IMG/VR virus record: IMGVR_UViG_3300023110_002336
Span: 26,622 to 90,621 of that record
DNA: 64,000 bases
Origin: a virus
Direction: 5' to 3' (one strand)
Below the pieces are notes generated by a model. The model was not told the DNA's origin. It saw only the letters and a list, made by a program, of their open reading frames with translations, and did no database searches. The position numbers and the translations under genes are program-made. Positions 6,001 to 64,000 of this stretch are shown here, piece by piece; the stretch's first letter is position 1; the number at the start of each line of letters is the position of its first letter.

Positions 6001-9000
6001 TCGAGAGCAACAAGATCATCTGTAAATCCGAGAAGAACGTTCTTTGGAATAAAGATGTTGTCGGTTTGGTTTATTGGACCTGCGGGATGTAGAGCGGTAT
6101 AGGTGTAGTGAATGTCCTTGTCGTCTGTAAAGTTGACGCCGCCCTTGATTTCTCTTATTCTCTTTGACTCGAACACTTGACCCTTGGATAGAGTGCGGTA
6201 CTTGAAGTTTGAGCGTGAGTATTTGACGCCTGCGTTAGTGAAACTTCTACCAACACCGCCATTAGTCTGGTTTGTGCTAACATTGCGAATCTGAGTTCTG
6301 TCGGAGTCCACAGCAGCATCACCAGAAGAAATTGTACCAGCACGCTCAGCACGCTCCTTCCACCAGTTTGAGTTATCGCGTTCTAATCCGCTTACGGGGG
6401 CGTGGTTTCTATCCCAGTTGTAGCGCAACTCTTCTGCACCGAAAGCAACGCCCTCGGTTGAAGAAGTGAAAGCCATCATCGGGATTCTGTGTTGGAACTT
6501 AGCACGCTCCAAAACGTGTGATTCTACTGTGTTTAGAATATCTGATGTGTATTCAGCAGACGCTGGGATAAGCTGCCCAATGATCTGAGATACAGCATCA
6601 TCGAACCACTTGTAGTAATCTACGAAACGTTCTACTTCTGTGACGTTTGTGACTCTGCGGAAGAAGACTTCTCTTAGCTTGTTGAGACCCTTGTACTCCA
6701 TCCTGTACATATGAACAGGGTGTCCAATTAGGTTATGGAAATCATTAACGCCTGCGAAGAAGTTTAACATCTCCTCGGAGATTGCGTTATACATACTCTT
6801 TTCAAGAACGTGGTGGTAGTTGGGAATTGTATCAACAGAATCAAAAAGTTTATCGTCATCTGTTCTGATCTGAACAAGATTGTCCCCGATTACCAACTCT
6901 GGGTTGATAAACTGATGCGTGTTGACTTCTTTTTTGAGAACAACGTCGGTTGCGTTAGCCTCGAAACCAAATCCAACGCCGGGGTATAGATAGCCAGAGA
7001 TGGCCCCTAGTTCTCCGTATTCTCCGCTTCTAGCCTCGGTAGATCCAGAACTGATATCTGTGACCGAGAAGCCGCCTGTTCCATCAGCGCCAGTTACGTT
7101 GCCGAACTCGTAGTTGAGAGCGAGCGTGTGACGGTTTAATGTTTTGTTGTTATCGTTGTCTAAAGCAGATAAATGTTGGCTGGCACTAACAATTCCATAA
7201 TTTTCAAAATCAAACGCATGTTGCTGTAAAGAAATTTCGTCAAGGTATTTCGTCCAGTATCTTGTAGCAGTTACAAGAACATCTGATTTGTATTGTAACG
7301 CACCTGTGACGTTTGTTCTATGAGCACCAACGAAGATTCTCTTTGGAGACTTGAGAAGATCTTCTGCACTTGTTGCTGAACCGGTTACCTTGAAGCTGTT
7401 TCTGATCTCTCCAAGCCTCTGATTGTATCCTGAGAATTCTAGGGTGTAACCAGAGGCTGCTACACCTTCAACAGAGCCTGTTAGTCCGAGACTATCCGGC
7501 TTGATACGAACTGAAAGATTCCAATCTTCATCATCATAGACGCCGTGGAAGAGGCTACTTGAGATTTCGCTTGTGAGCATAGAAGAAGAAAGAACAAATT
7601 TTACATTCTTTGAGTAGTTCTCGTCTCTCTCGGCATAAACGTAGAAGCTTGGGTCGTATACATCGGTCCCTGCTGTATCAGCACTAGCAGAGTGAAGACC
7701 GAATAGCGATACTCTTGTGAAATTGCGATCGAAAGTATCGATAAGCTTGATGAACTTGGGGAATATAACGTCAACTTCGTGGGTCAATCCGTAGCGAAGT
7801 TCGTGAGAATCCAATCCAGAGCCATAAATGTAGCCCAATTGTGTTGAATCAGTAGAACCAGACGAGTAAACAACCGCACCAAGATGGTCTTTGTTGTTGA
7901 AATTAACAGAAGACTTTTTCAAAGTTGTCTGTTTTAGATTATTTTCAAGTTCATATGTGAAGTTGTTAGCGTAAGTATTGAATCTTACTAGCTTATCATC
8001 GATGTTGAAAGCGCGAAGAACGTTTCTAACAGCCTTTTCGGTACCCTTTGACTTGAAAATGTAAGTTAAGTTGTTGTAAAGGTTAAGATAAATAAGGTTT
8101 TTAACTTCTTCTAGGTCATTCTCGAAGGCTTCGGATTCGTTTCTATTGAGAAATTTCTCCATAACAGTCGCATCTACGAAGATTTCTGGTGTTTCTAGAC
8201 CCAAAGAAGCTGGCATGTGCTTCGCAAATGGGATTGGTTTATAGGAGGAACTGGTGTAAATTGGTGATTTGAAAGTGGAAACAGCCTCGATTTGGAGGTA
8301 TAATTTGTCAAAATATGTACCAATTATATGACTTAGGTACTTGAAGTTGGTGTTTCCAAGGTCCTCGTGCTCTTCCATGATCCAACTTGGCATGAAAGTC
8401 GCAAAAGCCGCGTTATTGCGCATGTCATGGTCTGCACCCTTGCTTATGAGACTTGTTTTGAGACTAGATACGCTTGGATGGGTAGCATAAATGATAGGGT
8501 CAAGGTACTCGCTTGTAGCAGCGCTTGCGGATACAATTGCAGAACCAGTGTTACGAGTGCTTGTGGTGTAGCCGGTGAAGGTACCGTTAGAAATGCGACC
8601 AGAGTAGTCCAAAACTATCTTATCTGTCGCCTCTACGCCTGTTATGCCCTCGTTAAATTTGTAGTAGACCCCAAGGGTAGTGTTAGAAATGTCGGTGTTA
8701 GAACCGCCTCTGACTTGACCAAACCAGTTTCTACCGATCTCTTGTGCTGTTCTCTCAACTTTCCAGAAACGGAACTCGTCCATAGAACCTGAGAAATAAA
8801 GGTGCCCTTCATCATGAGAACCAGAGCCAATGTAAGCAAGGGTCTCTGGTTGTGTAAGAGTGTTTACACCGTCGGTACCAAGAGTTGTTGTCTGATCGAG
8901 AACACCATTGAGGTAGAACTTGGTTGTGATACCAGCACTTGCGCTCTTGAACGAGACAGCATAGTGATTCCAGTTTTCTATAGATGAGGTATCTGGAGTG

Positions 9001-9725: not shown

Positions 9726-11133
9726 AATCTTCTACTCTGAATAGGAATTTCTGGTCTTGCTCAAGCCAGCTTTGGCGTTGAGAGTCATAGAACGCAAGCT
9801 TGATGCCATACTCATAGCCGGGCTCAAGCAAGGACATATCAAGGTTGAAATAATTTCCTGAGACATCGTAAGAAAGGAGTGTTTGAAGTTCTGATCCTGT
9901 GCCGTGTGGAATAGCATTGTAACCATCTAAGACTCTATAAACTCTGTATGATGCGCTAGGAATAATAGTATTTTCTATTTCACTTGACGCTACTGTGTAA
10001 ATAGTTGGGGACCAGTTTTTGCTTCGGACATAAACGTTGAAGCGTGCTTCCTCTTCAGAGAAGTATTTGTTTCTAAGATTCTTGATCTTTGTGATGTAAC
10101 GGTTGTTACCAGTTGATACAGCAGCAGCACCGAAGGTTTGAGGAGAAATTGTTCCCGTAAAGTATTCAGTGCCCTCAGAATACCAAACATCACGTAAGGT
10201 TGTGTAGGTTCCTGTGATACAAACTGAGCAAGAGTATATGCCTGTTGACACATAGCCGCCTGTTGCTGGTGTGTTGATTTCTTGCGTTAATGCGGTGCCG
10301 CCGAGGGTCTGGTAAAGATCGACGTAGATTTCTCCTGTGCCAATCGCTGGGATGTTGGTCAATTGGCCACGAACGTAGTTGTAAAGATAGAGTGTGTTGA
10401 GGTTGTCTGCTGCTGGTGCGAGAGAAGAAGACATGTAGAAGTCGCCTCTATCATCTTGTGTTGAAGAGTTCCAACGAGCTTCGATTACAGGCTTCTTGAA
10501 GAAGTATTGTGTGCCTCTCGCAAAGAAGCGCTTGGTGTAATACGATGTTGTGTCGCTTTCTACTGAGGAAGTAAGTCTTATACCGATACCATAGTTGTCT
10601 TTTGTGCCATCGATCCATTGTTCAACAAGATCAGAAATGTCTATTTCTAAATCCTCCAAACCGCTATCAAAAGTCTGAGTAAACACAGGAGTTTCATGAT
10701 AATCACCACCAGCCGAACTCCATGCAGTGGTAGTAGATGCTGAAACCCAGTTTGATTTACCAATGTCTTTGTAGTTCTCCAAATCTAAACCATCGCCCTC
10801 ATTCCAAGCTCTTGAAATTGCTTGTGCTACTACTGTGAAGTTTTTTGGGACAGTCTGAGAAGTTTCAGCATTGTATAGACGCAAGTAAAAACTCACACTG
10901 CCAGAAGCAGGAATTACACCGGCTGTTCTATCTGAAGATATTGTAGATACGCTGAATTGGGTAAGAACGCGAGAGAGTTCCGAAGAAGTCAAAGAAGCGC
11001 GTCCATAAATTGAAAAAACTTCACTAACATCTGCCTGACCCATGTTTGAGCCAGTTGCTCTTACTCCTAGCCCATCTTTGAAGGCATTTGTAATTGTATT
11101 ATCGGCACTTGCCACATAACGTCTAATAGCCAT
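9715..11133 (-). CDS. Virion/baseplate-associated protein, DNRLRE-like beta domain
   Basis: 472 aa; motifs YLRLYN..AWNEG.G.D and EIDISDLVEQWIDG..NYG; lies in the baseplate operon. Confidence 0.6.
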   Translation of the reverse strand: MAIRRYVASADNTITNAFKDGLGVRATGSNMGQADVSEVFSIYGRASLTSSELSRVLTQFSVSTISSDRTAGVIPASGSVSFYLRLYNAETSQTVPKNFTVVAQAISRAWNEGDGLDLENYKDIGKSNWVSASTTTAWSSAGGDYHETPVFTQTFDSGLEDLEIDISDLVEQWIDGTKDNYGIGIRLTSSVESDTTSYYTKRFFARGTQYFFKKPVIEARWNSSTQDDRGDFYMSSSLAPAADNLNTLYLYNYVRGQLTNIPAIGTGEIYVDLYQTLGGTALTQEINTPATGGYVSTGIYSCSVCITGTYTTLRDVWYSEGTEYFTGTISPQTFGAAAVSTGNNRYITKIKNLRNKYFSEEEARFNVYVRSKNWSPTIYTVASSEIENTIIPSASYRVYRVLDGYNAIPHGTGSELQTLLSYDVSGNYFNLDMSLLEPGYEYGIKLAFYDSQRQSWLEQDQKFLFRVEDYEY

Positions 11134-39024: not shown

Positions 39025-39053
39025 AATATAACACCCCACACGGATGCTGTCAA
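39025..39053 (-). promoter_or_regulatory. Sigma70-type promoter
   Basis: TTGACA-N17-TATATT with extended TG, upstream of the nuclease gene. Confidence 0.75.
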
Positions 39054-39962: not shown

Positions 39963-40389
39963 ATTTTCTCCGTGTTCTTAGTAAGTAATCCGCTAAGGGA
40001 TGAACTACACACCAGTTCTTGTCTTGGTCTTTGCCCATGTGGTGGTCGTAATGCCACCGCAAGTACTTGTAACACCAATCAGGATTCTTGTGTGCGTAAC
40101 TGTGAATAACTAAATAGAACATAGCATGTAGAAACATTCCTGTGTAGGCTATGGGTGAAACGAACATTATTGGAGATAACAAGAAACATAAGAAAAAGAC
40201 CCCAACGACTTCTCTTAAAGAGACTTTGGGATCTAGGAATTTGTTTTTTCTTGCCTCGCGATGATGGACGCCCCAGTGAAATGAGAACACGGACGCCTTC
40301 TTCTTACCGAGATCATGTAAAAAGAATTTATGAACAATCCACTCTAGAAAGTTCCCGAGAAATAAACCTAGAATGAATTGCCAAACCAT
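39859..40389 (-). CDS. Fatty acid hydroxylase/sterol desaturase family membrane protein
   Basis: His boxes HKFFLH, HWGVHH, HSYAH and HYDHH, plus TM segments. Confidence 0.8.
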   Translation of the reverse strand: MVWQFILGLFLGNFLEWIVHKFFLHDLGKKKASVFSFHWGVHHREARKNKFLDPKVSLREVVGVFFLCFLLSPIMFVSPIAYTGMFLHAMFYLVIHSYAHKNPDWCYKYLRWHYDHHMGKDQDKNWCVVHPLADYLLRTRRKYEYRKPCSGRSCPRKSTEANATRVCGKQVCDRRR

Positions 40390-41720
40390 TAGAGCACCTT
40401 GGACGCTAGGGTAGCAACTTCGGAGCGCTCGCCTCTTGTGAAGGTAACGTGACCCGCAATTGGATAATTCTTGAATTTTTCAACAGCATGAGCGAGACCA
40501 TTAGAGGTCTCATTTACATAAACGTTGTCGATCTGCTCTACGTCACCTGTAAGGACAATCTTTGTTCCTTCACCAACACGAGTCATAATGGTCTTGATTT
40601 CGTGTGCTGTCAAGTTCTGAGCCTCATCAATAATAATGAAAGCATTTGCAATTGAGCGACCACGAATGTAAGTCAGAGCTTCTATTTCTATCTTACCCTT
40701 TTCCATGTACATTTGTAAAGTTTTCTTGTCGCCTCCGACCAAAAATTGTAGGTTGTCTTGAATAGGCATCAACCAAGGAAGCATCTTCTCTTCCATAGTT
40801 CCGGGTAAGAAACCTATGTCTTTACCAAGTGGTTGAACTGGTCGTGACACTATCATTCGGTCATAGTGGTTGTTGCCACGCAAACCAATTGTTTGCTGTA
40901 ATCCAGCAGCAATCGCACAAAGAGTTTTACCAGAGCCAGCACGACCGACCAAGGACACAACCTTTACAGACGGATCTAAAAGTAGGTCAATAGCGAACGC
41001 CTGTTCCTTGTTCCTTGATGAGATTTTCCAATCGGGAATCTTGTCATTAGTAATTTTTTTCAAGGGCTGGAAATGGCTGTAAAACCTCGCTATACAGGTT
41101 TTCTTCTCATTGGCATTGGATACCATAAGCACATACTGGTTTGGATACCATCGAGATTTAACTTCATCTTCACTTATTGTAATTTCGTCACCAGCATAGA
41201 AGCGGTCAATAACTTGATCATCAACAAGGTGAGCAGCAAGTCCAGAGTACAATTCATCTGAAGAAGTAACAACCTTCTCGGTTGTATAGTCTTCTGCTAT
41301 CAGCCCAATTGAATCACAGATGACACGCATGTTGATATCACGAGAAACTACACAGGTTTTACGTGTTGAGTCTTCCCTCACTGCCATAGCGGTCGCGATG
41401 ATCATGTGGTCTGGTATTCTTAGGTCGAGATCAGAAGGAAAAACAACATTCTTGAGAACCTCATAGGAAACAACCTTGAGCATTCCCTTACCCTTGTCTA
41501 TTCTAACGCCTTTTTGTAGATTGCCCTTTGCTCTCATCTCATCAAGTGTTCTGATGATCTTGCGAGCATTGATTCCTACGGAATCCTGACGCTTCTTGTG
41601 CTTATCGATCTCTTCAAGAACCTTGAGAGGAATGAAGATGTCGTGATTGTCAAACTTGAAAAGAGCGTCCGCATCAGTAAGGTAGACACTTGTGTCAAGA
41701 ATGTAGTTCTTTTTAGCCAT
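40389..41720 (-). CDS. phoH: PIN-domain PhoH-family ATPase
   Basis: N-terminal PIN (LDTSV, VLEEID); GRAGSGKT, GFLPG, YIRGRS, DEAQN, GDVEQID. Confidence 0.92.
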   Translation of the reverse strand: MAKKNYILDTSVYLTDADALFKFDNHDIFIPLKVLEEIDKHKKRQDSVGINARKIIRTLDEMRAKGNLQKGVRIDKGKGMLKVVSYEVLKNVVFPSDLDLRIPDHMIIATAMAVREDSTRKTCVVSRDINMRVICDSIGLIAEDYTTEKVVTSSDELYSGLAAHLVDDQVIDRFYAGDEITISEDEVKSRWYPNQYVLMVSNANEKKTCIARFYSHFQPLKKITNDKIPDWKISSRNKEQAFAIDLLLDPSVKVVSLVGRAGSGKTLCAIAAGLQQTIGLRGNNHYDRMIVSRPVQPLGKDIGFLPGTMEEKMLPWLMPIQDNLQFLVGGDKKTLQMYMEKGKIEIEALTYIRGRSIANAFIIIDEAQNLTAHEIKTIMTRVGEGTKIVLTGDVEQIDNVYVNETSNGLAHAVEKFKNYPIAGHVTFTRGERSEVATLASKVL

Positions 41721-41749
41721 TTAAACTCCTATGACTAACGTAAATAGTA

Positions 41750-41770
41750 AGCCCACCATTTAGGCGGGCT
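41750..41770. terminator. Hairpin/putative intrinsic terminator
   Basis: AGCCCACC-ATTTA-GGCGGGCT inverted repeat directly after the SpoU gene. Confidence 0.55.
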
Positions 41771-41773
41771 CTT

Positions 41774-42337
41774 TTAGGTTAGCATTGCATATCTTTGATT
41801 GTTTATCGAATTAAAGAAATTTTCTTTTTTCTTGTATTGCTTCACTGCTTCGTAGAGCATAATGTTGGCTGCCTGTGCGGTGTTTAGGCAGAAGCCTACG
41901 CCGGGCATCTCAATGTTTACAACGTCGCTATTTACGAGGATCTGCGTTGGAACACCTGTCGTTTCGTTGCCGACAATGATGCTCGTCTTTCTCTTGGGGT
42001 CAAACGAGTAGCGTTCGAGATTGACTGAATCGCTTGTTAGTTCTGCTGAGACAAGGTGAATGCCCTCTGCCCGAGAATAATCCAAAAACTCTTCTGGATT
42101 GGAGAACTGGTTGATTTGGACATAATCTACAAGGGAACCTGATAGTGCTCTTAGTTCGCTTCTCTCTGGAATGCAACCAATCACGTTCACGCTATCAGCA
42201 CCAAAGCAAGCAGCAGAACGAATAAGATAGCCTAGGTTCTCGTCACAACGAAAGTTGATTGCTGTTAGACTAACTGGGAATGTCCTTGCTTCTGATAGTT
42301 TGTTATCATAACGCTCTCTTCTAGTCTTGTCTCTCAT
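41774..42337 (-). CDS. SpoU/TrmH-family RNA 2'-O-methyltransferase
   Basis: NLGYLIRSAACFG, VGNETTGV, IEMPG..CLNTAQAA. Confidence 0.88.
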   Translation of the reverse strand: MRDKTRRERYDNKLSEARTFPVSLTAINFRCDENLGYLIRSAACFGADSVNVIGCIPERSELRALSGSLVDYVQINQFSNPEEFLDYSRAEGIHLVSAELTSDSVNLERYSFDPKRKTSIIVGNETTGVPTQILVNSDVVNIEMPGVGFCLNTAQAANIMLYEAVKQYKKKENFFNSINNQRYAMLT

Positions 42338-42353
42338 TTTGCCTCCAAAAAGG

Positions 42354-42429
42354 TGGTGCCTGAGGAGGGACTCGAACCCCCAACCCTCGACTTACAAAAT
42401 CGACGCTCTGCCAATTGAGCCACACAGGC
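42354..42429 (-). tRNA. tRNA-Thr(UGU)
   Basis: 76-nt cloverleaf GCCTGTG-TG-GCTC AATTGGCA GAGC-G-TCGAT TT TGT AA GTCGA-GGGTT-GGGGG TTCGAGT CCCTC-CTCAGGC-A-CCA. Confidence 0.93.
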
Positions 42430-42431
42430 AT

Positions 42432-42524
42432 GTTCGGTTTTAGTCTAGAACAAGGATAACCGAAAACCTCTGCCTACGTTTGGGTCGGGCAGCCCCCTAC
42501 CGTTATTACCGACGATACAGCGGT
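42432..42524 (-). ncRNA. Putative structured RNA: three tandem H-type pseudoknots
   Basis: Pairings ACCG/CGGT + TATCGT/ACGGTA; GGG/CCC + CTGCC/GGCAG; AGG/CCT + TTCGGTT/AACCGAA. Confidence 0.5.
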
Positions 42525-43030
42525 TACCAAAGATAATCTTCCCAAATGTCCTCAGCGTATCTTCTGAATTTGAAAGAGATGCTCTTTGGCTTTGTTGGTT
42601 GTCGTAGTAATGTCATACTTGCTTCTTCAGGAGTCTTGCTTCCCTTCTTCTGATTACATTTTTTACAACAAGCAACAAGGTTATTCCACTCGTTTTTGCC
42701 GCCTCTAGAGCGGGGCATAACATGGTCTATTGTTAGCTCAATCAAAGGCAACTTTTTAGCGCAATACTGACAAGTGTTATCATCTCTAATGCAAACGTTT
42801 TTTCTATTTGGACTGAAGCCTGAAAAGACGTACTTTACAACCCTATTGACAACAATGACCGAGGGAAGTTTGAAGCTGTTTGAGACAGAGTTTATCTCTA
42901 CATCGTGCTCTTCAATTGCTTTTGCTTTTCCAACGATACAAAGTACCAAAGCTTCTATCGCTTCGATAACTGCAATAGGCTTGTAGGCGGCATCTAACTT
43001 TAGAGCCATTATGTTTGATGATTCCATCAA
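42524..43030 (-). CDS. HNH endonuclease (McrA-like) with PLMP-like N-terminus
   Basis: RDDNTCQYC, TIDHVMPRSRGG, NLVACCKKCNQKKG; N-terminal LKLDAAYKPI..EAL.L...GKA. Confidence 0.88.
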   Translation of the reverse strand: MMESSNIMALKLDAAYKPIAVIEAIEALVLCIVGKAKAIEEHDVEINSVSNSFKLPSVIVVNRVVKYVFSGFSPNRKNVCIRDDNTCQYCAKKLPLIELTIDHVMPRSRGGKNEWNNLVACCKKCNQKKGSKTPEEASMTLLRQPTKPKSISFKFRRYAEDIWEDYLW

Positions 43031-43043
43031 AGCCTCCAGCTAT

Positions 43044-43072
43044 ATTATAACTAGAGAGATCCCGCCTGTCAA
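43044..43072 (-). promoter_or_regulatory. Perfect sigma70 promoter
   Basis: TTGACA-N17-TATAAT followed by SD GGAGG. Confidence 0.85.
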
Positions 43073-45947: not shown

Positions 45948-46151
45948 CTAGTCAATAGGTTCAAGATTCTCAGCATTTACGATCTTCCTTCTCCATTTAT
46001 CATCGATTTTTGGGTCGTCTATGTAAATCTCATAATAGTCGTTTGGTAGTCTATCAAGTATAACAGCTTTCTTTCCCTTTCTCAGATTTTCGCTTTGAGC
46101 ATCTGGAAACTGCCGATACATAACCCATTCGTCTATTCTAAATCTATGCAT
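45948..46151 (-). CDS. Small SH3/KOW-like protein
   Basis: Probable ATG at 46151; FRIDEWV..AVILD..YEIY. Confidence 0.5.
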   Translation of the reverse strand: MHRFRIDEWVMYRQFPDAQSENLRKGKKAVILDRLPNDYYEIYIDDPKIDDKWRRKIVNAENLEPID

Positions 46152-46157
46152 TTTACA

Positions 46158-46292
46158 AAAAGAAGAAAGGTCCGGTGCGGATCTCTTGCTCACCGCAGCT
46201 AGCCTACAGTTTAATTACGGGTTCAGATGCCGACAGGTCGTGATAGGCATGGACCTGATTACCATAAGCTCCCCGCCGAACCTCGGGGCAGA
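46158..46292 (-). ncRNA. Putative structured intergenic RNA/attenuator
   Basis: Pairings CCCCG/CGGGG, AGGTC/GACCT, ATGCC/GGCAT, TGCGG/CCGCA and alternative AGGTCC/GGACCT, followed by a U-rich tract. Confidence 0.4.
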
Positions 46293-46299
46293 ACACTTT

Positions 46300-46548
46300 T
46301 TATAACTTGTTGATTGTACTAATTAGCCCTTCTTTGCTAAAAAAGGAAACCTTATCAACTCTTAGCCATTCGCTGTACTTGTCATAGCCTCGCAGTTCCA
46401 TGACTCTCTGACGATCCATCTCAAATGCTTCATCGTCAACCCAATCTACACGGACCTCAGCCCATCCGTTCTGAATTCTCTCTTCTACTACCTTCCCAAA
46501 ACGAAGGCAGTGGTCTCCAAACTTAGTCCAAACGTTCTTGCCAATCAT
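46300..46548 (-). CDS. Small SH3/KOW-like protein
   Basis: FGKVVE...VRVDW; SD GGAGG. Confidence 0.6.
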   Translation of the reverse strand: MIGKNVWTKFGDHCLRFGKVVEERIQNGWAEVRVDWVDDEAFEMDRQRVMELRGYDKYSEWLRVDKVSFFSKEGLISTINKL

Positions 46549-46556
46549 AGAACCTC

Positions 46557-47249
46557 CTAGTAAAATTCTTTGTCTAGTTTCTCGGCTGGAACCTTACGCC
46601 ACAGTGCGACAATTTGATTGTCTTGTTGGTTGCTCTGTGGGTAAATGAATCCTATACTATTATAACGTTCTTCGGCTAGGTTGGCAACCATTTCGTATGT
46701 GTTTGGCTTTAAATGATGGAACCTAGGATTATCAACCATGAGAGTGTCACCTGCATGACGCTCTTTTGTGTAGTAGAGCCCATCTGAATCTTCTGTCTTG
46801 GTACAGATGTGCCATTCATTGTAGCGCTCACTGACGGAACACTTTTCGGCTGTCTTCATCTTCTCAGCAAATTCTGGAATGTTTGCTTCCATCCAGTTCT
46901 GCTGTTCTTGCTTTGAGGATAAACCTGCTGGGTCATCCATGACTGGATAGAGTTGGTTTGGTCTCAGCCTAACACGATAGGGGACACCTTCAATTCTTCC
47001 AATGCCTGTGTCTTCTTGTCCGAGACGAGTAAAAAAGAAAACTCTTGGTCTATCCCAACTTCTGTATTCTTGCTGAGTGTAATTCTTAAGATTTCTTGCA
47101 GCAATGTCAGGGTCTAGTTCTTCAATGTCTTCTACACTAGAAACGTGATAAAGAATAATGTTACCCTCATCATCTTGTTCTAATGGAATCTCAGAAATAA
47201 AATTTTGTTCTGTCAAGAACCTTCTGAAGTTTTCAATTATTAATTTCAT
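46557..47249 (-). CDS. Leader-bearing protein, putative ADP-ribosyltransferase fold
   Basis: MKLIIENFRRFLTE leader; LYHVS...LDP...VFFFT pattern. Confidence 0.5.
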   Translation of the reverse strand: MKLIIENFRRFLTEQNFISEIPLEQDDEGNIILYHVSSVEDIEELDPDIAARNLKNYTQQEYRSWDRPRVFFFTRLGQEDTGIGRIEGVPYRVRLRPNQLYPVMDDPAGLSSKQEQQNWMEANIPEFAEKMKTAEKCSVSERYNEWHICTKTEDSDGLYYTKERHAGDTLMVDNPRFHHLKPNTYEMVANLAEERYNSIGFIYPQSNQQDNQIVALWRKVPAEKLDKEFY

Positions 47250-49557: not shown

Positions 49558-50627
49558 TATCTAGACACTTTTTTATTCATAGCTTCTTTGACTAATTTGC
49601 GGATTAGGTTACGAATCTGTGCTTCGTCCATCTTTTCTTTCTTGTCTTGGTCCTTGCAAGGAACGTGATCGCACTTTTCGTCCTTGCCGTCGCCATCATC
49701 ATACTTACCTTTTTCTTCTGCCTCTTCCATCGGGCGAGCACGCTTCTGTGAAGAACGGCGGTCGTCATTCTGCTCGCGGTCAGCAGTCAATTCACGACCT
49801 GAAGAAGAAGCGCCTTCCTCGATCTCTTCTGATTCTGCGTAGAGACCCTGAGCCATCACGGCTGCATCTATGCACTTTTGGGAACCTTCTTCTGCTCCGC
49901 CGCGACGGCATTCTGGCGGCAAGAATCTTTCGTCGCCTTCCTCTTCAAGATGCTTGCGATAGTCCTTCTCACCGTAGTATCCCTTTATGGCGTCTTCATA
50001 ACGGTCACGATCCCGCGCCGTTTTTATCTTTTTCTTGGCGGCAGCCACACTATTCGGGAGATCTTCGTCGTCTCCGGTGCGTCCTTTGAAGACACCCTCT
50101 TCAACAGCTTCTTCCTCCTGAGACTCAGTAAGAAGATTAAATGAGAAACCCCATTTCTCTGTTAGGAGAGTTGGTAACTCTCTGTTTTTCCAATCTTTAA
50201 TAGACATGTCTTTTTTTGCTCCTTTCTGCAAAGATTCATTGTAAATAGTGCCCTTTATGCTATCTTCCCAATCACGAAAACACAAATTGCCTTTCTCGTA
50301 GGCTTGCCTCTCCATTTCGCGTAGGTGAGCGTCATTTTGGGCATAGCCCTCACCCATTTCACCTACGTCGTTGAACTGACCATTACAATTCTGTGTGTGA
50401 TGCACCAGTTCGTGAGATAGGGAACGCATAACGTCTTTCGGATGTCTCCCATTTATGTAAAGAGTGACCGACATCTTCTCTGGGTCATAGTAAGCGGTCT
50501 TGCCTAATGGATTCTGTGCGTTCTCGGGATCATCACGCAAAAACACACGCGGTGGCTTCTGAAAGCCCATTCGCTTCTGAGCGAACGGCATGAACTGATT
50601 GAACAGCGGCTGTAGAATGTCTTTCAT
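49557..50627 (-). CDS. HExxH metallopeptidase with acidic, scaffold-like C-terminal half
   Basis: RSLSHELVHH..E.QAY; the C-terminal half is Glu-rich and ends EAQIRNLIRKLVKEA. Confidence 0.7.
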   Translation of the reverse strand: MKDILQPLFNQFMPFAQKRMGFQKPPRVFLRDDPENAQNPLGKTAYYDPEKMSVTLYINGRHPKDVMRSLSHELVHHTQNCNGQFNDVGEMGEGYAQNDAHLREMERQAYEKGNLCFRDWEDSIKGTIYNESLQKGAKKDMSIKDWKNRELPTLLTEKWGFSFNLLTESQEEEAVEEGVFKGRTGDDEDLPNSVAAAKKKIKTARDRDRYEDAIKGYYGEKDYRKHLEEEGDERFLPPECRRGGAEEGSQKCIDAAVMAQGLYAESEEIEEGASSSGRELTADREQNDDRRSSQKRARPMEEAEEKGKYDDGDGKDEKCDHVPCKDQDKKEKMDEAQIRNLIRKLVKEAMNKKVSR

Positions 50628-54572: not shown

Positions 54573-55721
54573 TCATGTGTTGAATCTTCCGAGATCAACA
54601 ATAACAATATCATTCGTGCCGGGACGCATCATAACGTTACCAGCGTGAACATCAAAAGGTCTAAACTCGCGGTCAGCAAACCTTTTCATCGCATCGCGGA
54701 CAAACATAATCTCTGGGAACTCTTGTTCTAGTTCGTCTTCTTGCCCGTAGAACTGGTCCATACCACGGAGAGCGGAGTCTTGTGATAATTCTCGTCCTTC
54801 TGCTCCAGAAACCAGAGGCTTTTGATATGCTTTTTCAAAACCAATAATTAGTGATTCTTTCATGTGTTGCTTATATTGTTCTATTACTTCTCTGTGTGCT
54901 TCACTTCTAGCATGATTTAGCATCTCTTTGTAACTTATTTGAACGTAGAGCATCATGAGCTTCTTACCTAAGTCGCTCATCGCCATTCTTCTTATGTAAG
55001 GATCGGGACGCACAGCAGGTATAGTGCCTGAGAAGAATTGTTCCATAATTTTTTTCTCTGCGGCTTCTTGTGCTTTCACGGTTAGATAATTACCTTGTTC
55101 TCCCATCAAACTCCAAGCAATATTCAAAAGCGAAGAGACGAGCTTGGGATTCTTGAGAAGTCGCTTGTCTCTAATTTCTCTTGCTCTTTTGTTTCTGTCT
55201 GAGTTGCCAAGAGCAGCAAACATTGATCTGGCAACATCTGTCGGTAATGGCTCTAGTTGTTCCATAACAATAAAGCCATGTTTCTTCTTTGTGCCGTCTG
55301 CACCTTCACCTTCAACTGGAATGTCTTCCATTGAGGCTTCATAGACGACGGGTAGATACTTCTTGTAGGCTCTAAAAGAATTGTAGTTATCTTTCACAAA
55401 CTTGTAGTTTTTTACCTCTCTCTCGGCAGAAGCACCACCACCTTGGTCAGCATCGATAGTCTTGATGGCCACAGTCTGACCAGTTTTCTTGTTTGTTGCT
55501 TTATAAACCTTGCCGTCCATACCAGAACCCAGTAGTTTATCTAGATAGTAGCCCTTCTCTGATAGGAAAAGTTTCAAGCCTGTAAGGGCACGGCGCTCGG
55601 GTTGTGGATCTGGTTTTGTTGGCTCATCGTTAAGAGCAAATGTAGGCTCTGCATCTCTGACTGTAGGACCAGCGAGTGGATTTTGCTCTAGCAAGAATTG
55701 ATTCCAAAATTTATTATACAT
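54573..55721 (-). CDS. Leader-bearing Ser/Thr kinase-like protein
   Basis: MYNKFWNQFLLE; LGSGMDGKVY, VAIK, EREV, DVHAGNVM, VDLG. Confidence 0.8.
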   Translation of the reverse strand: MYNKFWNQFLLEQNPLAGPTVRDAEPTFALNDEPTKPDPQPERRALTGLKLFLSEKGYYLDKLLGSGMDGKVYKATNKKTGQTVAIKTIDADQGGGASAEREVKNYKFVKDNYNSFRAYKKYLPVVYEASMEDIPVEGEGADGTKKKHGFIVMEQLEPLPTDVARSMFAALGNSDRNKRAREIRDKRLLKNPKLVSSLLNIAWSLMGEQGNYLTVKAQEAAEKKIMEQFFSGTIPAVRPDPYIRRMAMSDLGKKLMMLYVQISYKEMLNHARSEAHREVIEQYKQHMKESLIIGFEKAYQKPLVSGAEGRELSQDSALRGMDQFYGQEDELEQEFPEIMFVRDAMKRFADREFRPFDVHAGNVMMRPGTNDIVIVDLGRFNT

Positions 55722-55906
55722 TATTTTCTACCTGTTATCAAGAAATACAACGAAAAACACGCAACGTTAAATAGTGTTAGAAGTTGTAATTGGGGTTGTT
55801 CCGAGATAACAGCAAAAAGAAAAAGCCCAATGTTTATCGCAATACATGTCATTGACATGGTTTCGATAAAACGATTGGACTGATTCATTCGTGAGCCCTC
55901 TACCAA
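55721..55906 (-). CDS. Small two-TM membrane protein
   Basis: Two hydrophobic segments. Confidence 0.5.
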   Translation of the reverse strand: MVEGSRMNQSNRFIETMSMTCIAINIGLFLFAVISEQPQLQLLTLFNVACFSLYFLITGRK

Positions 55907-57762: not shown

Positions 57763-57791
57763 AATATAACGCTAGAGCTTGATCCTGTCAA
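57763..57791 (-). promoter_or_regulatory. Sigma70-type promoter (possibly leaderless transcript)
   Basis: TTGACA-N17-TATATT; ATG 6 nt after the -10. Confidence 0.65.
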
Positions 57792-63713: not shown

Positions 63714-64000
63714 GTTAGTCTCCTGCCTTATTGGCTACGATGTAAATAGTTTTTGTTTTGTTCTCGGTCACAAATCTGGGAAATTTTTTGGCGGTGTTTT
63801 TTGCATAACCCGTTTTGTGGGGGTGTGCAAGCGAATTCTGGAAATTTTGGCGCGGTATTGTGAATGTACCTGCGCCGCCACGGCGATAACCCGCCTTCAT
63901 AGGGACATACCCTCCGGGGGGGGAGGGGGGAGGGGGGTACCCCCAACGCAAACTAACGATCCCACAAACAAACGCACGCAACGGAACGCCCGCCAGTGCG

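What the first reader, a model, noticed from the sequence alone, without database searches (positions are those of the whole stretch)
41750..43072. Self-contained unit: sigma70 promoter - PLMP-like HNH - pseudoknot RNA - tRNA-Thr - SpoU methylase - hairpin
Seen: a perfect TTGACA-N17-TATAAT promoter precedes an HNH nuclease, a 90-nt structured spacer, tRNA-Thr(UGU) and a SpoU/TrmH methylase, and a hairpin closes the unit. Known: the PLMP-plus-HNH architecture defines IshB, a relative of the RNA-guided IscB; SpoU enzymes 2'-O-methylate RNA (e.g. TrmH Gm18); phage tRNAs can counter host anticodon nucleases. Inference: an early RNA-centred module, for example an HNH-ncRNA RNP, or a nuclease/methylase pair that protects phage tRNA while host nucleic acid is attacked.
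Basis: partly seen in the sequence, partly recalled or inferred. Interest (0 to 1): 0.72.

Follow-up and report, generated by a model that had tools for sequence, protein, structure and literature searches.

The report
Phage nuclease, three-pseudoknot RNA, tRNA, methylase unit
An uncultured marine phage carries one early operon that strings together an IscB-related mini-nuclease, a previously undescribed RNA made of three pseudoknots, a threonine tRNA and an RNA methylase, but related phages show these are separable pieces, with the RNA as the conserved core.

Summary
They are a perfect sigma-70 promoter, an HNH gene whose N-terminal domain folds like the PLMP domain of IscB/IsrB, a 90-nt non-coding RNA, tRNA-Thr(UGU), a TrmH-like SpoU gene and a terminator-like hairpin.

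The spacer is the main result. It is a single-copy RNA of three tandem H-type pseudoknots. It was recovered in 41 distinct variants from related marine phages, with 98.8% of 974 pair cells paired and 9 of 24 pairs compensatory. Rfam 15 has no match.

Synteny argues against an obligatory four-part module:
- The HNH abuts the RNA in 20 of 41 variants, lies 0.6-1 kb upstream in 14, and is absent from the locus in 7. One complete 203-kb genome has the RNA but no HNH.
- SpoU occurs in 7 of 41.
- A tRNA-Thr(UGU) or tRNA-Asn(GUU) starts 4-8 nt after the RNA in 18 of 41.

Best reading: a mosaic early transcription unit. The RNA is a conserved core, often a tRNA 5' leader. The tRNA-SpoU-hairpin is an accessory cassette, possibly anti-defence.

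First-stage notes of this scan describe similar tRNA-abutting pseudoknot RNAs in other genomes.

The parts
43044..43072 (-). Sigma-70-type promoter: -35 TTGACA at 43072-43067, 17-nt spacer, -10 TATAAT at 43049-43044
   Evidence: 12 of 12 consensus positions. Only perfect match in the window. The same promoter type (TTGACA or TTGACG, then TATAAT or TATATT) stands upstream of the HNH in L091, L011, L012 and L013. Other relatives carry a CTATTTA-type motif there instead.
42524..43027 (-). IshB-type nuclease gene, 167 aa. PLMP-like domain about residues 6-70 (42812-43027); HNH domain about residues 77-141 (42605-42799)
   Evidence: Pfam HNH_5/HNH/HNH_4. HNH part closest to TbaIscB, 2.2e-16, and to NCBIfam guided_IscB, 2e-15, below cut-off. 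N-domain model pLDDT 84.8. The top 5 of 48,161 chains are all IscB/IsrB N-termini, Z 6.6-4.6, with the next at 2.8. CxxC pairs and D-H/N residues are invariant in 30 homologues.
42498..42523 (-). Pseudoknot 1 of the RNA. 3-bp helix 42523-42521 with 42511-42509; 5-bp helix 42517-42513 with 42502-42498. It starts on the base after the HNH stop codon.
   Evidence: On A7 the helices 9-11:22-25 and 15-19:58-62 are 99-100% paired, with 5 pairs changed on both sides. The 3-bp helix was not part of the covariance model used to align.
42470..42497 (-). Pseudoknot 2. 3-bp helix 42497-42495 with 42484-42482; invariant 5-bp helix CUGCC/GGCAG, 42492-42488 with 42474-42470
   Evidence: Helix 63-65:76-78 is 92.7% paired and 2 pairs are compensatory (GC/CG; GC/UA/AU/GU). 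Helix 68-72:86-90 never varies in 41 sequences.
42434..42469 (-). Pseudoknot 3. 3-bp helix 42469-42467 with 42455-42453; 5-bp helix 42463-42459 with 42438-42434. It ends 4 nt before the tRNA.
   Evidence: Helix 91-93:105-107 is 100% paired (AU/GU/GC). In helix 97-101:124-128 the closing pair occurs as UA 21, CG 12, AU 4, UG 2, GC 1.
42354..42429 (-). tRNA-Thr, anticodon UGU, CCA encoded
   Evidence: ARAGORN. Rfam tRNA 64.8 bits. A tRNA-Thr(UGU) holds the same place, 4 nt after the RNA, in L012, L091, L104, L254, L271 and L272, and 8 nt after it in L097.
41774..42337 (-). SpoU/TrmH-like RNA 2'-O-methyltransferase gene, 187 aa. Its Shine-Dalgarno sequence starts 8 nt after the tRNA.
   Evidence: Pfam SpoU_methylase 3.4e-22. 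NCBIfam RlmB/TrmH/TrmL hits are all far below cut-off. Nearest solved chains are the TARBP1 methyltransferase domain and TrmH-family enzymes. Homologues at 84/77/68% identity sit in the same place in L254, L104 and L091.
41750..41770 (-). Terminator-like hairpin (8-9 bp G+C-rich stem, 5-nt loop) closing the accessory cassette
   Evidence: z -4.88. Flagged by the terminator scan. The same hairpin follows SpoU in L091 and L104 and is absent where the cassette is absent.
41740..41748 (-). ACTATTTAC motif, a phage promoter-like element heading the next gene (PhoH2, 40389-41720). It marks the downstream boundary of the unit.
   Evidence: 4 exact copies in the window against 0.51 expected. The motif lies before PhoH2 in the relatives and before the HNH in most relatives.

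Best explanation
The stretch is one early transcription unit of an uncultured marine or salt-marsh phage of about 190 kb. It was assembled from separable pieces and is not an obligatory four-part machine.

Shown:
1. A consensus host-type promoter and a terminator-like hairpin bracket four genes.
2. The first gene encodes an IshB-type protein: a PLMP-fold domain plus an IscB-like HNH domain, with no RuvC.
3. The spacer is a 90-nt RNA of three tandem H-type pseudoknots. It is single-copy and conserved in 41 variants across several phage clades. It always lies between the cytidylyltransferase-like gene and PhoH2.
4. What lies upstream of the RNA varies: the HNH stop codon, other ORFs, a tRNA-Gly, or its own sigma-70 promoter.
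5. In 18 of 41 variants a tRNA-Thr(UGU) or tRNA-Asn(GUU) begins 4-8 nt after the last helix.
6. tRNA-Thr + SpoU + hairpin is a cassette. It sits between the RNA and the PhoH2 promoter-like motif in 4 variants, this window among them.

Inferred mechanism:
- Host RNA polymerase transcribes the unit early.
- RNase P cuts at the tRNA 5' end, 4 nt after pseudoknot 3. This frees the tRNA and leaves the compact pseudoknot RNA as the 3' end of the nuclease mRNA, or as a stable small RNA.
- The RNA has a role of its own, because the clade without an adjacent tRNA keeps it at about 90% identity.
- The phage tRNA supplies ACA decoding. It either replaces a host isoacceptor destroyed by an anticodon-arm nuclease or matches phage codon use.
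- The SpoU enzyme 2'-O-methylates a tRNA ribose.
- The HNH protein acts on nucleic acid independently of the RNA.
For: Anatomy.

PLMP fold:
- The N-domain model has pLDDT 84.8.
- In Foldseek against the PDB, ranks 1, 2, 4, 6 and 12 are IscB/IsrB, with probabilities 0.66-0.87 and E 0.5-1.2.
- An independent VIA-align search of 48,161 chains gives a top 5 that are all IscB/IsrB residues 1 to about 55, Z 6.6, 6.2, 5.2, 5.0 and 4.6. The next chain scores 2.8.

RNA structure:
- A1, 17 distinct rows: 99.4% of cells paired.
- A6, 27 rows: 99.5%.
- A7, 41 rows: 98.8% of 974 cells paired, 9 of 24 pairs changed on both sides, 90 such cells. Slid controls pair at 32-48%, and 0 of 500 shuffles reach the covariation score.
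- The three short pseudoknot helices were not in model R1, so the alignment was not fitted to them.
- U-G and G-U pairs fit the gene strand only.

Single copy: one match each in G000, G003, G004 and G005, two of them rated 100% complete.

Context table, n = 41:
- HNH abutting 20, 0.6-1 kb upstream 14, none in the locus 7.
- tRNA 4-8 nt after the RNA in 18 (8 Thr-UGU, 10 Asn-GUU).
- SpoU in 7.
- PhoH2 downstream in 37; the other 4 contigs end first.

Other points:
- G003 (203 kb, terminal repeats, 100% complete) has the RNA but no HNH homologue at E<=0.001.
- L262 has a sigma-70-like promoter ending 18 nt before the RNA model, then the RNA, then tRNA-Asn.
- Cassette boundaries: relatives go from the RNA straight to the ACTATTTA motif. 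The window, L091 and L104 insert tRNA, SpoU and the same hairpin there.
- AriB of PARIS cleaves tRNA-Lys(UUU), Thr(UGU) and Asn(GUU), and T5 versions of the three rescue infection (PMC12409363, abstract and passages).
- ACA is the commonest Thr codon, 251 of 633, in 30 large ORFs of the window.
Against: - No expression or processing data exist. The two RNA libraries that hold part of the stretch give one contig each, both inside SpoU. Contigs cannot show ends, and DNA carry-over is possible.
- RNase P cleavage, stability of the RNA and the methylation target are all inferred.
- The host is unknown, so neither the anti-nuclease nor the codon-supply reading of the tRNA can be tested.
- All 41 variants come from syntenic relatives, so co-occurrence counts are not independent events.
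- The RNA starts on the very base after the HNH stop codon in 20 variants. Within the clades that carry it, the HNH keeps a fixed position close to the RNA. Both facts still allow a functional HNH-RNA link there.
- PLMP similarity is by fold only. A profile of 34 N-domains found no PDB sequence at E<=10. Z values of 5-6.6 are in a range where common small folds also score.
Confidence: 0.6

Rival explanations
1. HNH-RNA particle. The three-pseudoknot RNA is the cognate RNA of the IshB-type nuclease. It is bound through the PLMP domain, as the omega RNA is contacted by PLMP in IscB, and it is matured at its 3' end by RNase P at the abutting tRNA.
For: - PLMP-fold domain.
- A review passage states that in OgeuIscB the PLMP domain contacts the last loop of the omega RNA (PMC10734217).
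- The RNA begins on the base after the HNH stop in 20 of 41 variants and lies within 1 kb of the HNH in 14 more.
- In L014 and L020 the HNH frame runs into pseudoknot 1.
Against: - A complete 203-kb genome has the RNA but no HNH homologue.
- 7 of 41 loci lack the HNH.
- Model R1 matched only loci that carry the element; the 33 of 59 sources without a match, which include the distant HNH homologues L002-L009 and L033 onward, had none at E<=1.
- There is no similarity to HEARO/omega RNA or any other Rfam family.
- The RNA lies 3' of the gene, whereas the IscB omega RNA is associated with the left (5') end of the element (PMC10734217 passage).
Confidence: 0.12
2. Cis-regulatory leader. The RNA is a riboswitch-like or attenuator element that controls whatever lies downstream, ultimately PhoH2, a PIN-PhoH RNA helicase/nuclease.
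For: - PhoH2 is downstream on the same strand in 37 of 41 variants, only 40-45 nt away in 14 of them.
- All three pseudoknots have A-rich third loops (sequence). That such loops are typical of ligand-binding H-type pseudoknots is recalled, not tested.
Against: - The genes directly downstream vary: tRNA, SpoU, unrelated ORFs, PhoH2.
- Insertions of up to 3.4 kb separate the RNA from PhoH2. In this window they include a terminator-like hairpin.
- PhoH2 has its own promoter-like motif after the RNA.
- No terminator or Shine-Dalgarno-sequestering platform follows the RNA.
- No Rfam riboswitch matches at E<=10.
Confidence: 0.1
3. Uncleaved composite 3' end. The upstream mRNA keeps the three pseudoknots and the tRNA as its 3' end, like the upstream pseudoknot domain plus tRNA-like structure of tobamovirus RNAs. 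This would stabilise the message or recruit elongation factor or CCA-adding/aminoacylation enzymes.
For: - The order is the same: stop codon, three tandem H-type pseudoknots, then a tRNA with an encoded CCA after a short fixed 4-8 nt linker, in 18 of 41 variants.
- The tobamovirus parallel is recalled, and it is also made in note e1-6128515.
Against: - A genuine tRNA with a normal acceptor stem is a standard RNase P substrate.
- In this window the SpoU gene follows the tRNA on the same transcript, so the tRNA is not at a 3' end.
- 15 variants of the main clade have no tRNA after the RNA.
- L262 has no upstream ORF.
Confidence: 0.05
4. Plain codon-supply tRNA and housekeeping methylase. The tRNA-SpoU cassette only tunes translation of an A+T-rich phage in a host with different codon use and has nothing to do with defence.
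For: - The window has 41% G+C, and ACA is its commonest Thr codon at 40%.
- The complete relative G005 carries 10 tRNAs, mostly decoding A-ending codons (UCU, UUG, UUU, UUC, UGG, UGU).
Against: - The tRNAs that recur at this one site are Thr(UGU) and Asn(GUU), two of the three AriB targets.
- The window's tRNA-Thr is a different allele from that in L012, L091 and L104, which suggests turnover.
- The host is unknown, so neither side can be weighed.
Confidence: 0.3

Closest known systems
IshB (PLMP + HNH, about 180 aa; OMEGA/IscB relatives)
   Same: - Small protein of 167 aa.
- N-terminal domain with the IscB/IsrB PLMP fold.
- HNH domain closest to the IscB and Cas9d HNH.
- No RuvC, bridge helix or TAM-interacting domain.
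   Different: - It sits at a fixed, vertically inherited position in a phage genome, between metabolic genes, and not in an IS200/IS605 element.
- There is no HEARO/omega RNA.
- The literal PLMP motif is not evident; one Pro is invariant.
- The primary description (Altae-Tran 2021) was not held. The definition is taken from passages of PMC10734217, PMC11610941 and PMC13284715.
Tobamovirus upstream pseudoknot domain plus tRNA-like structure; tmRNA pseudoknots PK2-PK4
   Same: Three consecutive H-type pseudoknots directly 5' of a tRNA-shaped element, right after a stop codon.
   Different: - Here the downstream element is a real tRNA gene of a DNA phage.
- No sequence or Rfam relation.
- The comparison is recalled, not tested.
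Phage T5 tRNA-Lys/Thr/Asn variants that neutralise PARIS (AriB)
   Same: [quoted passage not shown]
   Different: - The host and its defences are unknown.
- No tRNA-Lys at this site, although G005 and G003 carry one elsewhere.
- Resistance of this tRNA is untested.
Theta (HDV-like) ribozymes next to phage tRNAs
   Same: A small structured, pseudoknotted RNA abutting phage tRNA genes.
   Different: - Theta ribozymes are proposed to process tRNA 3' trailers (PMC10879173 passages). This RNA lies 5' of the tRNA.
- Its six covarying helices form three local pseudoknots, not the nested double pseudoknot of HDV-like ribozymes.
- No Rfam ribozyme matches.
TrmH/SpoU tRNA (Gm18) 2'-O-methyltransferases
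   Same: SPOUT domain. The nearest solved chains are TARBP1 and TrmH-family enzymes.
   Different: - Scores are far below the NCBIfam equivalog cut-offs (49 bits against 227 for TrmH).
- It is a phage gene packed 8 nt behind a tRNA.
- The substrate is unknown.
Stable small RNAs of the phage T4 tRNA gene cluster (recalled, not looked up)
   Same: Small non-tRNA RNAs encoded beside phage tRNA genes and presumably cut out of the same precursor. Their function is unknown.
   Different: No sequence relation was tested. The T4 RNAs are not known to me as pseudoknot arrays.

Membership tests
IshB (PLMP + HNH) | N-terminal domain with the PLMP fold of IscB/IsrB | tested here: met
   Model pLDDT 84.8. 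VIA-align over 48,161 chains gives a top 5 that are all IscB/IsrB residues 1 to about 55 (Z 6.6-4.6, rmsd 2.2-3.9, 48-53 aligned), with the next at Z 2.8. IscB/IsrB are also the leading Foldseek rows.
IshB (PLMP + HNH) | Sequence-level PLMP motif or profile similarity | tested here: inconclusive
   A profile of 34 N-domains found no PDB sequence at E<=10. One Pro (P17) is invariant in 30 close homologues and nearly invariant (90% or more) in the wider 34-sequence set. No residue-level alignment to IscB was obtained.
IshB (PLMP + HNH) | IscB/Cas9-type HNH domain with catalytic and zinc-binding residues | tested here: met
   Pfam HNH_5 8.9e-20. TbaIscB 2.2e-16. NCBIfam guided_IscB 2e-15, a partial match below cut-off. 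C86, C89, C121, C124, D101, H102, N116 and N125 are invariant.
IshB (PLMP + HNH) | No RuvC, bridge helix or TAM-interacting domain; about 180 aa | tested here: met
   167 aa. Only HNH families hit in Pfam.
IshB (PLMP + HNH) | IS200/IS605 transposon context | tested here: not met
   The same position between the cytidylyltransferase-like gene and PhoH2 holds in related phages. The neighbours are sugar-nucleotide and PhoH2 genes. Transposon ends were not searched for specifically.
IshB (PLMP + HNH) | Associated omega/HEARO-type RNA and RNA-guided cleavage | tested here: not met
   No Rfam match at E<=1 over 3 kb or at E<=10 on the RNA itself. The adjacent RNA is unrelated and also occurs without the HNH. 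Activity is not testable here.
Tandem H-type pseudoknot RNA | Crossing helices supported by covariation | tested here: met
   Six helices forming three crossing pairs. 98.8% of 974 cells paired, 9 of 24 pairs compensatory, slid controls 32-48%.
HDV-like / theta ribozyme | Nested double pseudoknot (P1 and P2 spanning the whole RNA) at a tRNA 3' trailer | tested here: not met
   The covarying helices are three local pseudoknots and none spans the RNA. The RNA lies 5' of the tRNA in 18 of 41 variants. No Rfam ribozyme matches. Self-cleavage is untested.
tRNA | Cloverleaf, anticodon, 3' CCA | tested here: met
   ARAGORN Thr(UGU). Rfam 64.8 bits against a gathering score of 29. CCA is encoded.
SpoU/TrmH (SPOUT) methyltransferase | SPOUT catalytic domain | tested here: met
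   PF00588 3.4e-22, residues 27-162 of 187.
TrmH (Gm18) equivalog | Score above the curated equivalog cut-off | tested here: not met
   TrmH 49 bits against 227, RlmB 52.9 against 160, TrmL 42.2 against 190.6.
Intrinsic terminator | G+C-rich hairpin followed by a U tract | tested here: inconclusive
   The hairpin is strong (z -4.88). The tail passes the scan's rule of 5 T in 8 but is interrupted and overlaps the next promoter-like motif.
Sigma-70 promoter | Consensus -35 and -10 hexamers at 17-nt spacing, placed before a gene | tested here: met
   12 of 12. Unique perfect match. Conserved in 4 relatives. Activity is not testable here.

The most novel reading that the evidence does not exclude
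The three-pseudoknot RNA is the missing RNA partner of an IshB-type (PLMP + HNH) nuclease. The PLMP domain would grip the RNA encoded directly behind its own stop codon, and RNase P cleavage at the abutting tRNA would set the RNA's 3' end. The particle would then act on RNA or DNA early in infection. Lineages without the HNH would keep the RNA for a second role linked to the tRNA.
Probability: 0.1. Interest if true: 0.85.

Novelty: new variant of a known kind. Interest (0 to 1): 0.62.

Why it matters
Three points matter.

1. The spacer defines an RNA family that Rfam 15 does not hold, and my two literature searches did not find it. It is a single-copy array of three H-type pseudoknots with unusually clean covariation. 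It is conserved across several clades of large marine phages and often sits 4-8 nt in front of tRNA-Thr(UGU) or tRNA-Asn(GUU). These are two of the isoacceptors that a known anti-phage nuclease destroys. That makes a link between phage tRNA expression or processing and a new structured RNA testable.

2. IshB-type proteins are uncharacterised and have been invoked as a possible RNA-compatible ancestor of IscB (PMC13284715 passage). This one is a resident phage gene with a conserved RNA at its stop codon. It is a concrete pair for a binding test, even though comparative data argue against an obligatory pairing.

3. The tRNA-SpoU-hairpin cassette is a candidate counter-defence module that could be tried in model hosts.

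Tried and rejected
Single-sequence folding of the spacer gave no signal (z 0.05). Only comparative analysis showed the structure.

MAFFT alignment A2 of divergent variants misaligned helix 1 and the 3' end. It was replaced by model-based alignments.

DNA search of cultured phages found only tRNA matches. The best PhoH2 match in cultured phages was below 40% identity, so no cultured relative and no host could be named.

The first IMG/VR scan with the SpoU protein found nothing. SpoU-bearing relatives came later through the RNA pattern.

The genome contigs pattern scan was too loose. Of the 80 screened with R1, only L173 was a convincing match, at 54.8 bits. L111, L125 and the other weak matches look like coding or chance sequence.

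Whole-protein fold search returned only HNH-domain matches. The N-domain had to be folded alone.

HDV-like/theta ribozyme and riboswitch readings were considered and set aside on topology and on the lack of Rfam matches.

A long-range helix between the 5' flank and loop 3 of pseudoknot 3, seen in L094 and L098, did not generalise.

The conserved flanks of distant soil-type HNH homologues most likely reflect neighbouring genes and were not pursued.

Expression: two RNA libraries held one contig each, both inside SpoU, and nothing on the RNA or tRNA. Contigs cannot show absence, ends or level, so no conclusion is drawn.

No tmRNA homologue was found in the window.

The primary IshB paper was not held. 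The supplements of PMC12409363 (cleavage-site figures) and of the IshB paper could bear on the tRNA and membership claims.
Full report
WHAT IS THERE

The window is bases 26622-90621 of a 90.6-kb IMG/VR virus record rated about 50% complete. All genes run on the minus strand. From 43072 down to 41750 the sequence reads as follows.

- Promoter. A TTGACA-N17-TATAAT promoter scores 12 of 12. It is the only perfect match in 64 kb. Five sites with at most one mismatch all lie on the coding strand, against 0.58 expected.
- HNH ORF. It is 167 aa from the ATG at 43027.
- Spacer of 94 nt.
- tRNA-Thr(UGU) with an encoded CCA.
- SpoU-family ORF of 187 aa. Its Shine-Dalgarno sequence starts 8 nt after the tRNA.
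- Hairpin. It is G+C-rich, z -4.88.
- Directly behind the hairpin comes an ACTATTTAC motif and then PhoH2, a PIN-PhoH fusion.

THE NUCLEASE

Pfam sees only the HNH domain at residues 87-141, but the whole length is conserved in over 1,200 database proteins of similar size. The HNH part is closest to the IscB and Cas9d HNH: TbaIscB at 2.2e-16 and NCBIfam guided_IscB at 2e-15, below cut-off.

The whole-protein model matched only HNH domains. Residues 1-72 were therefore folded alone with 34 diverse homologues, giving pLDDT 84.8.

- Foldseek against the PDB gave no match at E<=0.001. Ranks 1, 2, 4, 6 and 12 were IscB or IsrB structures, for example OgeuIscB at probability 0.87, rmsd 2.2 over 57 columns.
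- VIA-align, which does not depend on Foldseek, ranked five IscB/IsrB representatives first among 48,161 chains. Their Z scores were 6.6, 6.2, 5.2, 5.0 and 4.6. Each aligned over its own residues 1 to about 55, which is the PLMP domain. The next chain scored Z 2.8.
- A sequence profile of the domain found nothing in the PDB at E<=10.

I take the PLMP-plus-HNH (IshB-type) architecture as supported by fold, with moderate strength. Review passages define IshB as about 180 aa with PLMP and HNH but no RuvC, and treat it as uncharacterised. The primary paper was not held. Unlike IshB as named, this gene sits at a fixed position in a phage genome and not in an insertion sequence.

THE SPACER IS A CONSERVED RNA OF THREE PSEUDOKNOTS

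Alone it folds no better than shuffles. Yet the intergenic sequence after the HNH is about 90% identical across relatives whose HNH proteins are only 52-66% identical.

Two pattern scans of IMG/VR, one metagenome scan and one genome-collection scan produced 41 distinct variants. On the model-based alignment A7 six helices hold:

- 98.8% of 974 cells pair.
- 9 of 24 pairs change on both sides, in 90 cells.
- Partners slid by 1-3 columns pair at only 32-48%.
- No shuffle of 500 reaches the covariation score.
- Earlier subsets gave the same picture.

The helices form three consecutive H-type pseudoknots of the same build: a 3-bp helix, a 5-bp helix and an A-rich third loop. Only the three 5-bp helices were in the covariance model, so the support for the crossing 3-bp helices is not an alignment artefact.

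- The closing pair of the last helix occurs as U-A, C-G, A-U, G-C and U-G.
- Helix 1 is wholly rewritten between clades.
- The CUGCC/GGCAG helix never varies.
- G-U pairs fit the gene strand only.

Rfam 15 has no match at E<=1 over 3 kb, at gathering scores over the window, or at E<=10 on the RNA alone. Two literature searches found nothing like it. The RNA is single-copy in four records, including two complete genomes.

First-stage notes of this scan describe the same RNA here (e1-6128515) and similar tRNA-abutting pseudoknot RNAs in other genomes (e1-5805723, e1-6043473, e1-6043488, e1-6011661).

SYNTENY

Among the 41 variants, with up to 6 kb examined on each side:

- HNH. Its stop codon abuts the RNA in 20. 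It lies 0.6-1 kb upstream in 14, separated by a tRNA-Asn and one to three ORFs. It is absent from the locus in 7. The complete 203-kb record G003 has the RNA but no HNH homologue at E<=0.001.
- Upstream of the RNA. It can follow the HNH stop, a 158-aa ORF, a short Cys-rich ORF, a tRNA-Gly (L266), or a sigma-70-like promoter with no ORF (L262).
- Downstream of the RNA. A tRNA starts 4-8 nt after the last helix in 18 variants: 8 Thr(UGU) and 10 Asn(GUU). In 15 closely related variants the PhoH2 leader follows directly.
- PhoH2 lies downstream in 37. The other four contigs end first.
- SpoU. It occurs in 7. Four have it behind tRNA-Thr as here (window, L091, L104, L254). One has it 23 nt after the RNA (L173). 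One has it 0.8 kb after (L266) and one 0.9 kb before (L271).

Comparison with cassette-free relatives places tRNA-Thr, SpoU and the hairpin as one insertion between the last helix and the ACTATTTA motif. The hairpin is conserved with the cassette.

The sigma-70 promoter before the HNH is shared only with L091, L011, L012 and L013. Other relatives have the phage motif there.

The unit is therefore a real operon in this phage, but its parts are separable. The RNA is the constant element.

MECHANISM

Shown: the anatomy, the fold match, the RNA structure and the distribution.

Inferred:
- Early transcription by host polymerase.
- RNase P cleavage 4 nt after pseudoknot 3, releasing the tRNA and leaving the RNA as the 3' end of the nuclease message or as a free small RNA.
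- An independent role for the RNA, since the tRNA-less clade keeps it.
- Supply of ACA decoding by the tRNA.
- Ribose methylation of a tRNA by the SpoU enzyme.

The anti-defence reading of the tRNA rests on analogy. AriB of PARIS cleaves tRNA-Lys(UUU), Thr(UGU) and Asn(GUU), and T5 versions of these rescue infection (PMC12409363, abstract and passages). Thr(UGU) and Asn(GUU) are exactly the tRNAs that recur at this site. Codon supply is an equally live reading: ACA accounts for 40% of Thr codons and the window has 41% G+C.

The SpoU protein is TrmH-like by its nearest solved relatives but scores below every curated cut-off.

EXPRESSION DATA

The DNA is held almost whole by salt-marsh metagenomes and in part by estuary and seawater runs. 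Two RNA libraries gave one contig each inside SpoU. This shows neither transcription level nor ends.

VERDICT

- The interpretation as a self-contained RNA-centred module is partly supported.
- The PLMP call and the pseudoknot call were right.
- The obligatory linkage of the four parts, and with it an obligatory HNH-RNA particle, is contradicted by relatives.
- The most valuable outcome is a new, strongly supported phage RNA family tied to tRNA-Thr/Asn genes, sitting next to an IshB-type nuclease.

Noticed in passing
window 41740-41748, 9997-10005, 50241-50249, 63742-63750 (- strand); relatives L014-L032 upstream of the HNH: An ACTATTTAC / CTATTTA-type motif lies 10-20 nt before Shine-Dalgarno sequences. 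It has 4 exact copies in the window against 0.51 expected. It replaces the sigma-70 promoter before the HNH in most relatives. It is probably a phage-specific promoter.
   Followed up: partly
L096 about 7625-7688; L099, L101 and L255 at the same place: A short Cys-rich ORF (about 20 aa in L096, L099 and L101, half of them Cys; longer in L255) has its own CTATTTA-like motif and Shine-Dalgarno sequence. It ends right at the start of the pseudoknot RNA. It could be a small metal-binding peptide or a leader peptide.
   Followed up: no
L011 1792-2126, L013 445-780, L016 941-1277, L019, L023, L252-L271; G003 about 29.5 kb: Many relatives encode a tmRNA about 1-3.5 kb upstream of the HNH or cytidylyltransferase gene. 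None was found in this window.
   Followed up: partly
L251, L253, L255, L257, L258, L261, L264 and others: Two separate tRNA-Asn(GUU) genes flank the block of ORFs and pseudoknot RNA. One follows the HNH and the second starts 4-8 nt after the RNA.
   Followed up: no
L014 and L020, HNH 3' end: The HNH stop codon is changed (TAA to CAA). The frame runs 7 codons into pseudoknot 1 and ends at the conserved UAA of its loop.
   Followed up: no
L173 (genome contigs record filed as a Woesearchaeota MAG): The contig carries the phage cytidylyltransferase gene, tRNA-Asn, the pseudoknot RNA, SpoU and PhoH2. It looks like a phage contig binned into an archaeal MAG.
   Followed up: partly
window about 46130-46310 (- strand): An ORF-free, G+C-rich stretch of about 170 nt with several possible hairpins lies between two small genes (sequence). 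There is no Rfam match at gathering scores.
   Followed up: no
window 42354-42429 against L012, L091, L104, L254: The tRNA-Thr(UGU) of the window differs in acceptor and anticodon stems from the allele shared by L012, L091 and L104. The first 11 bases of L254's tRNA that were shown differ from the window's at one position. This suggests tRNA replacement at a fixed site.
   Followed up: partly
window 39025-39053, 46659-46687, 55713-55741, 57763-57791 (- strand): Four further near-consensus sigma-70 promoters (11 of 12) all lie on the coding strand. They are likely early promoters.
   Followed up: no
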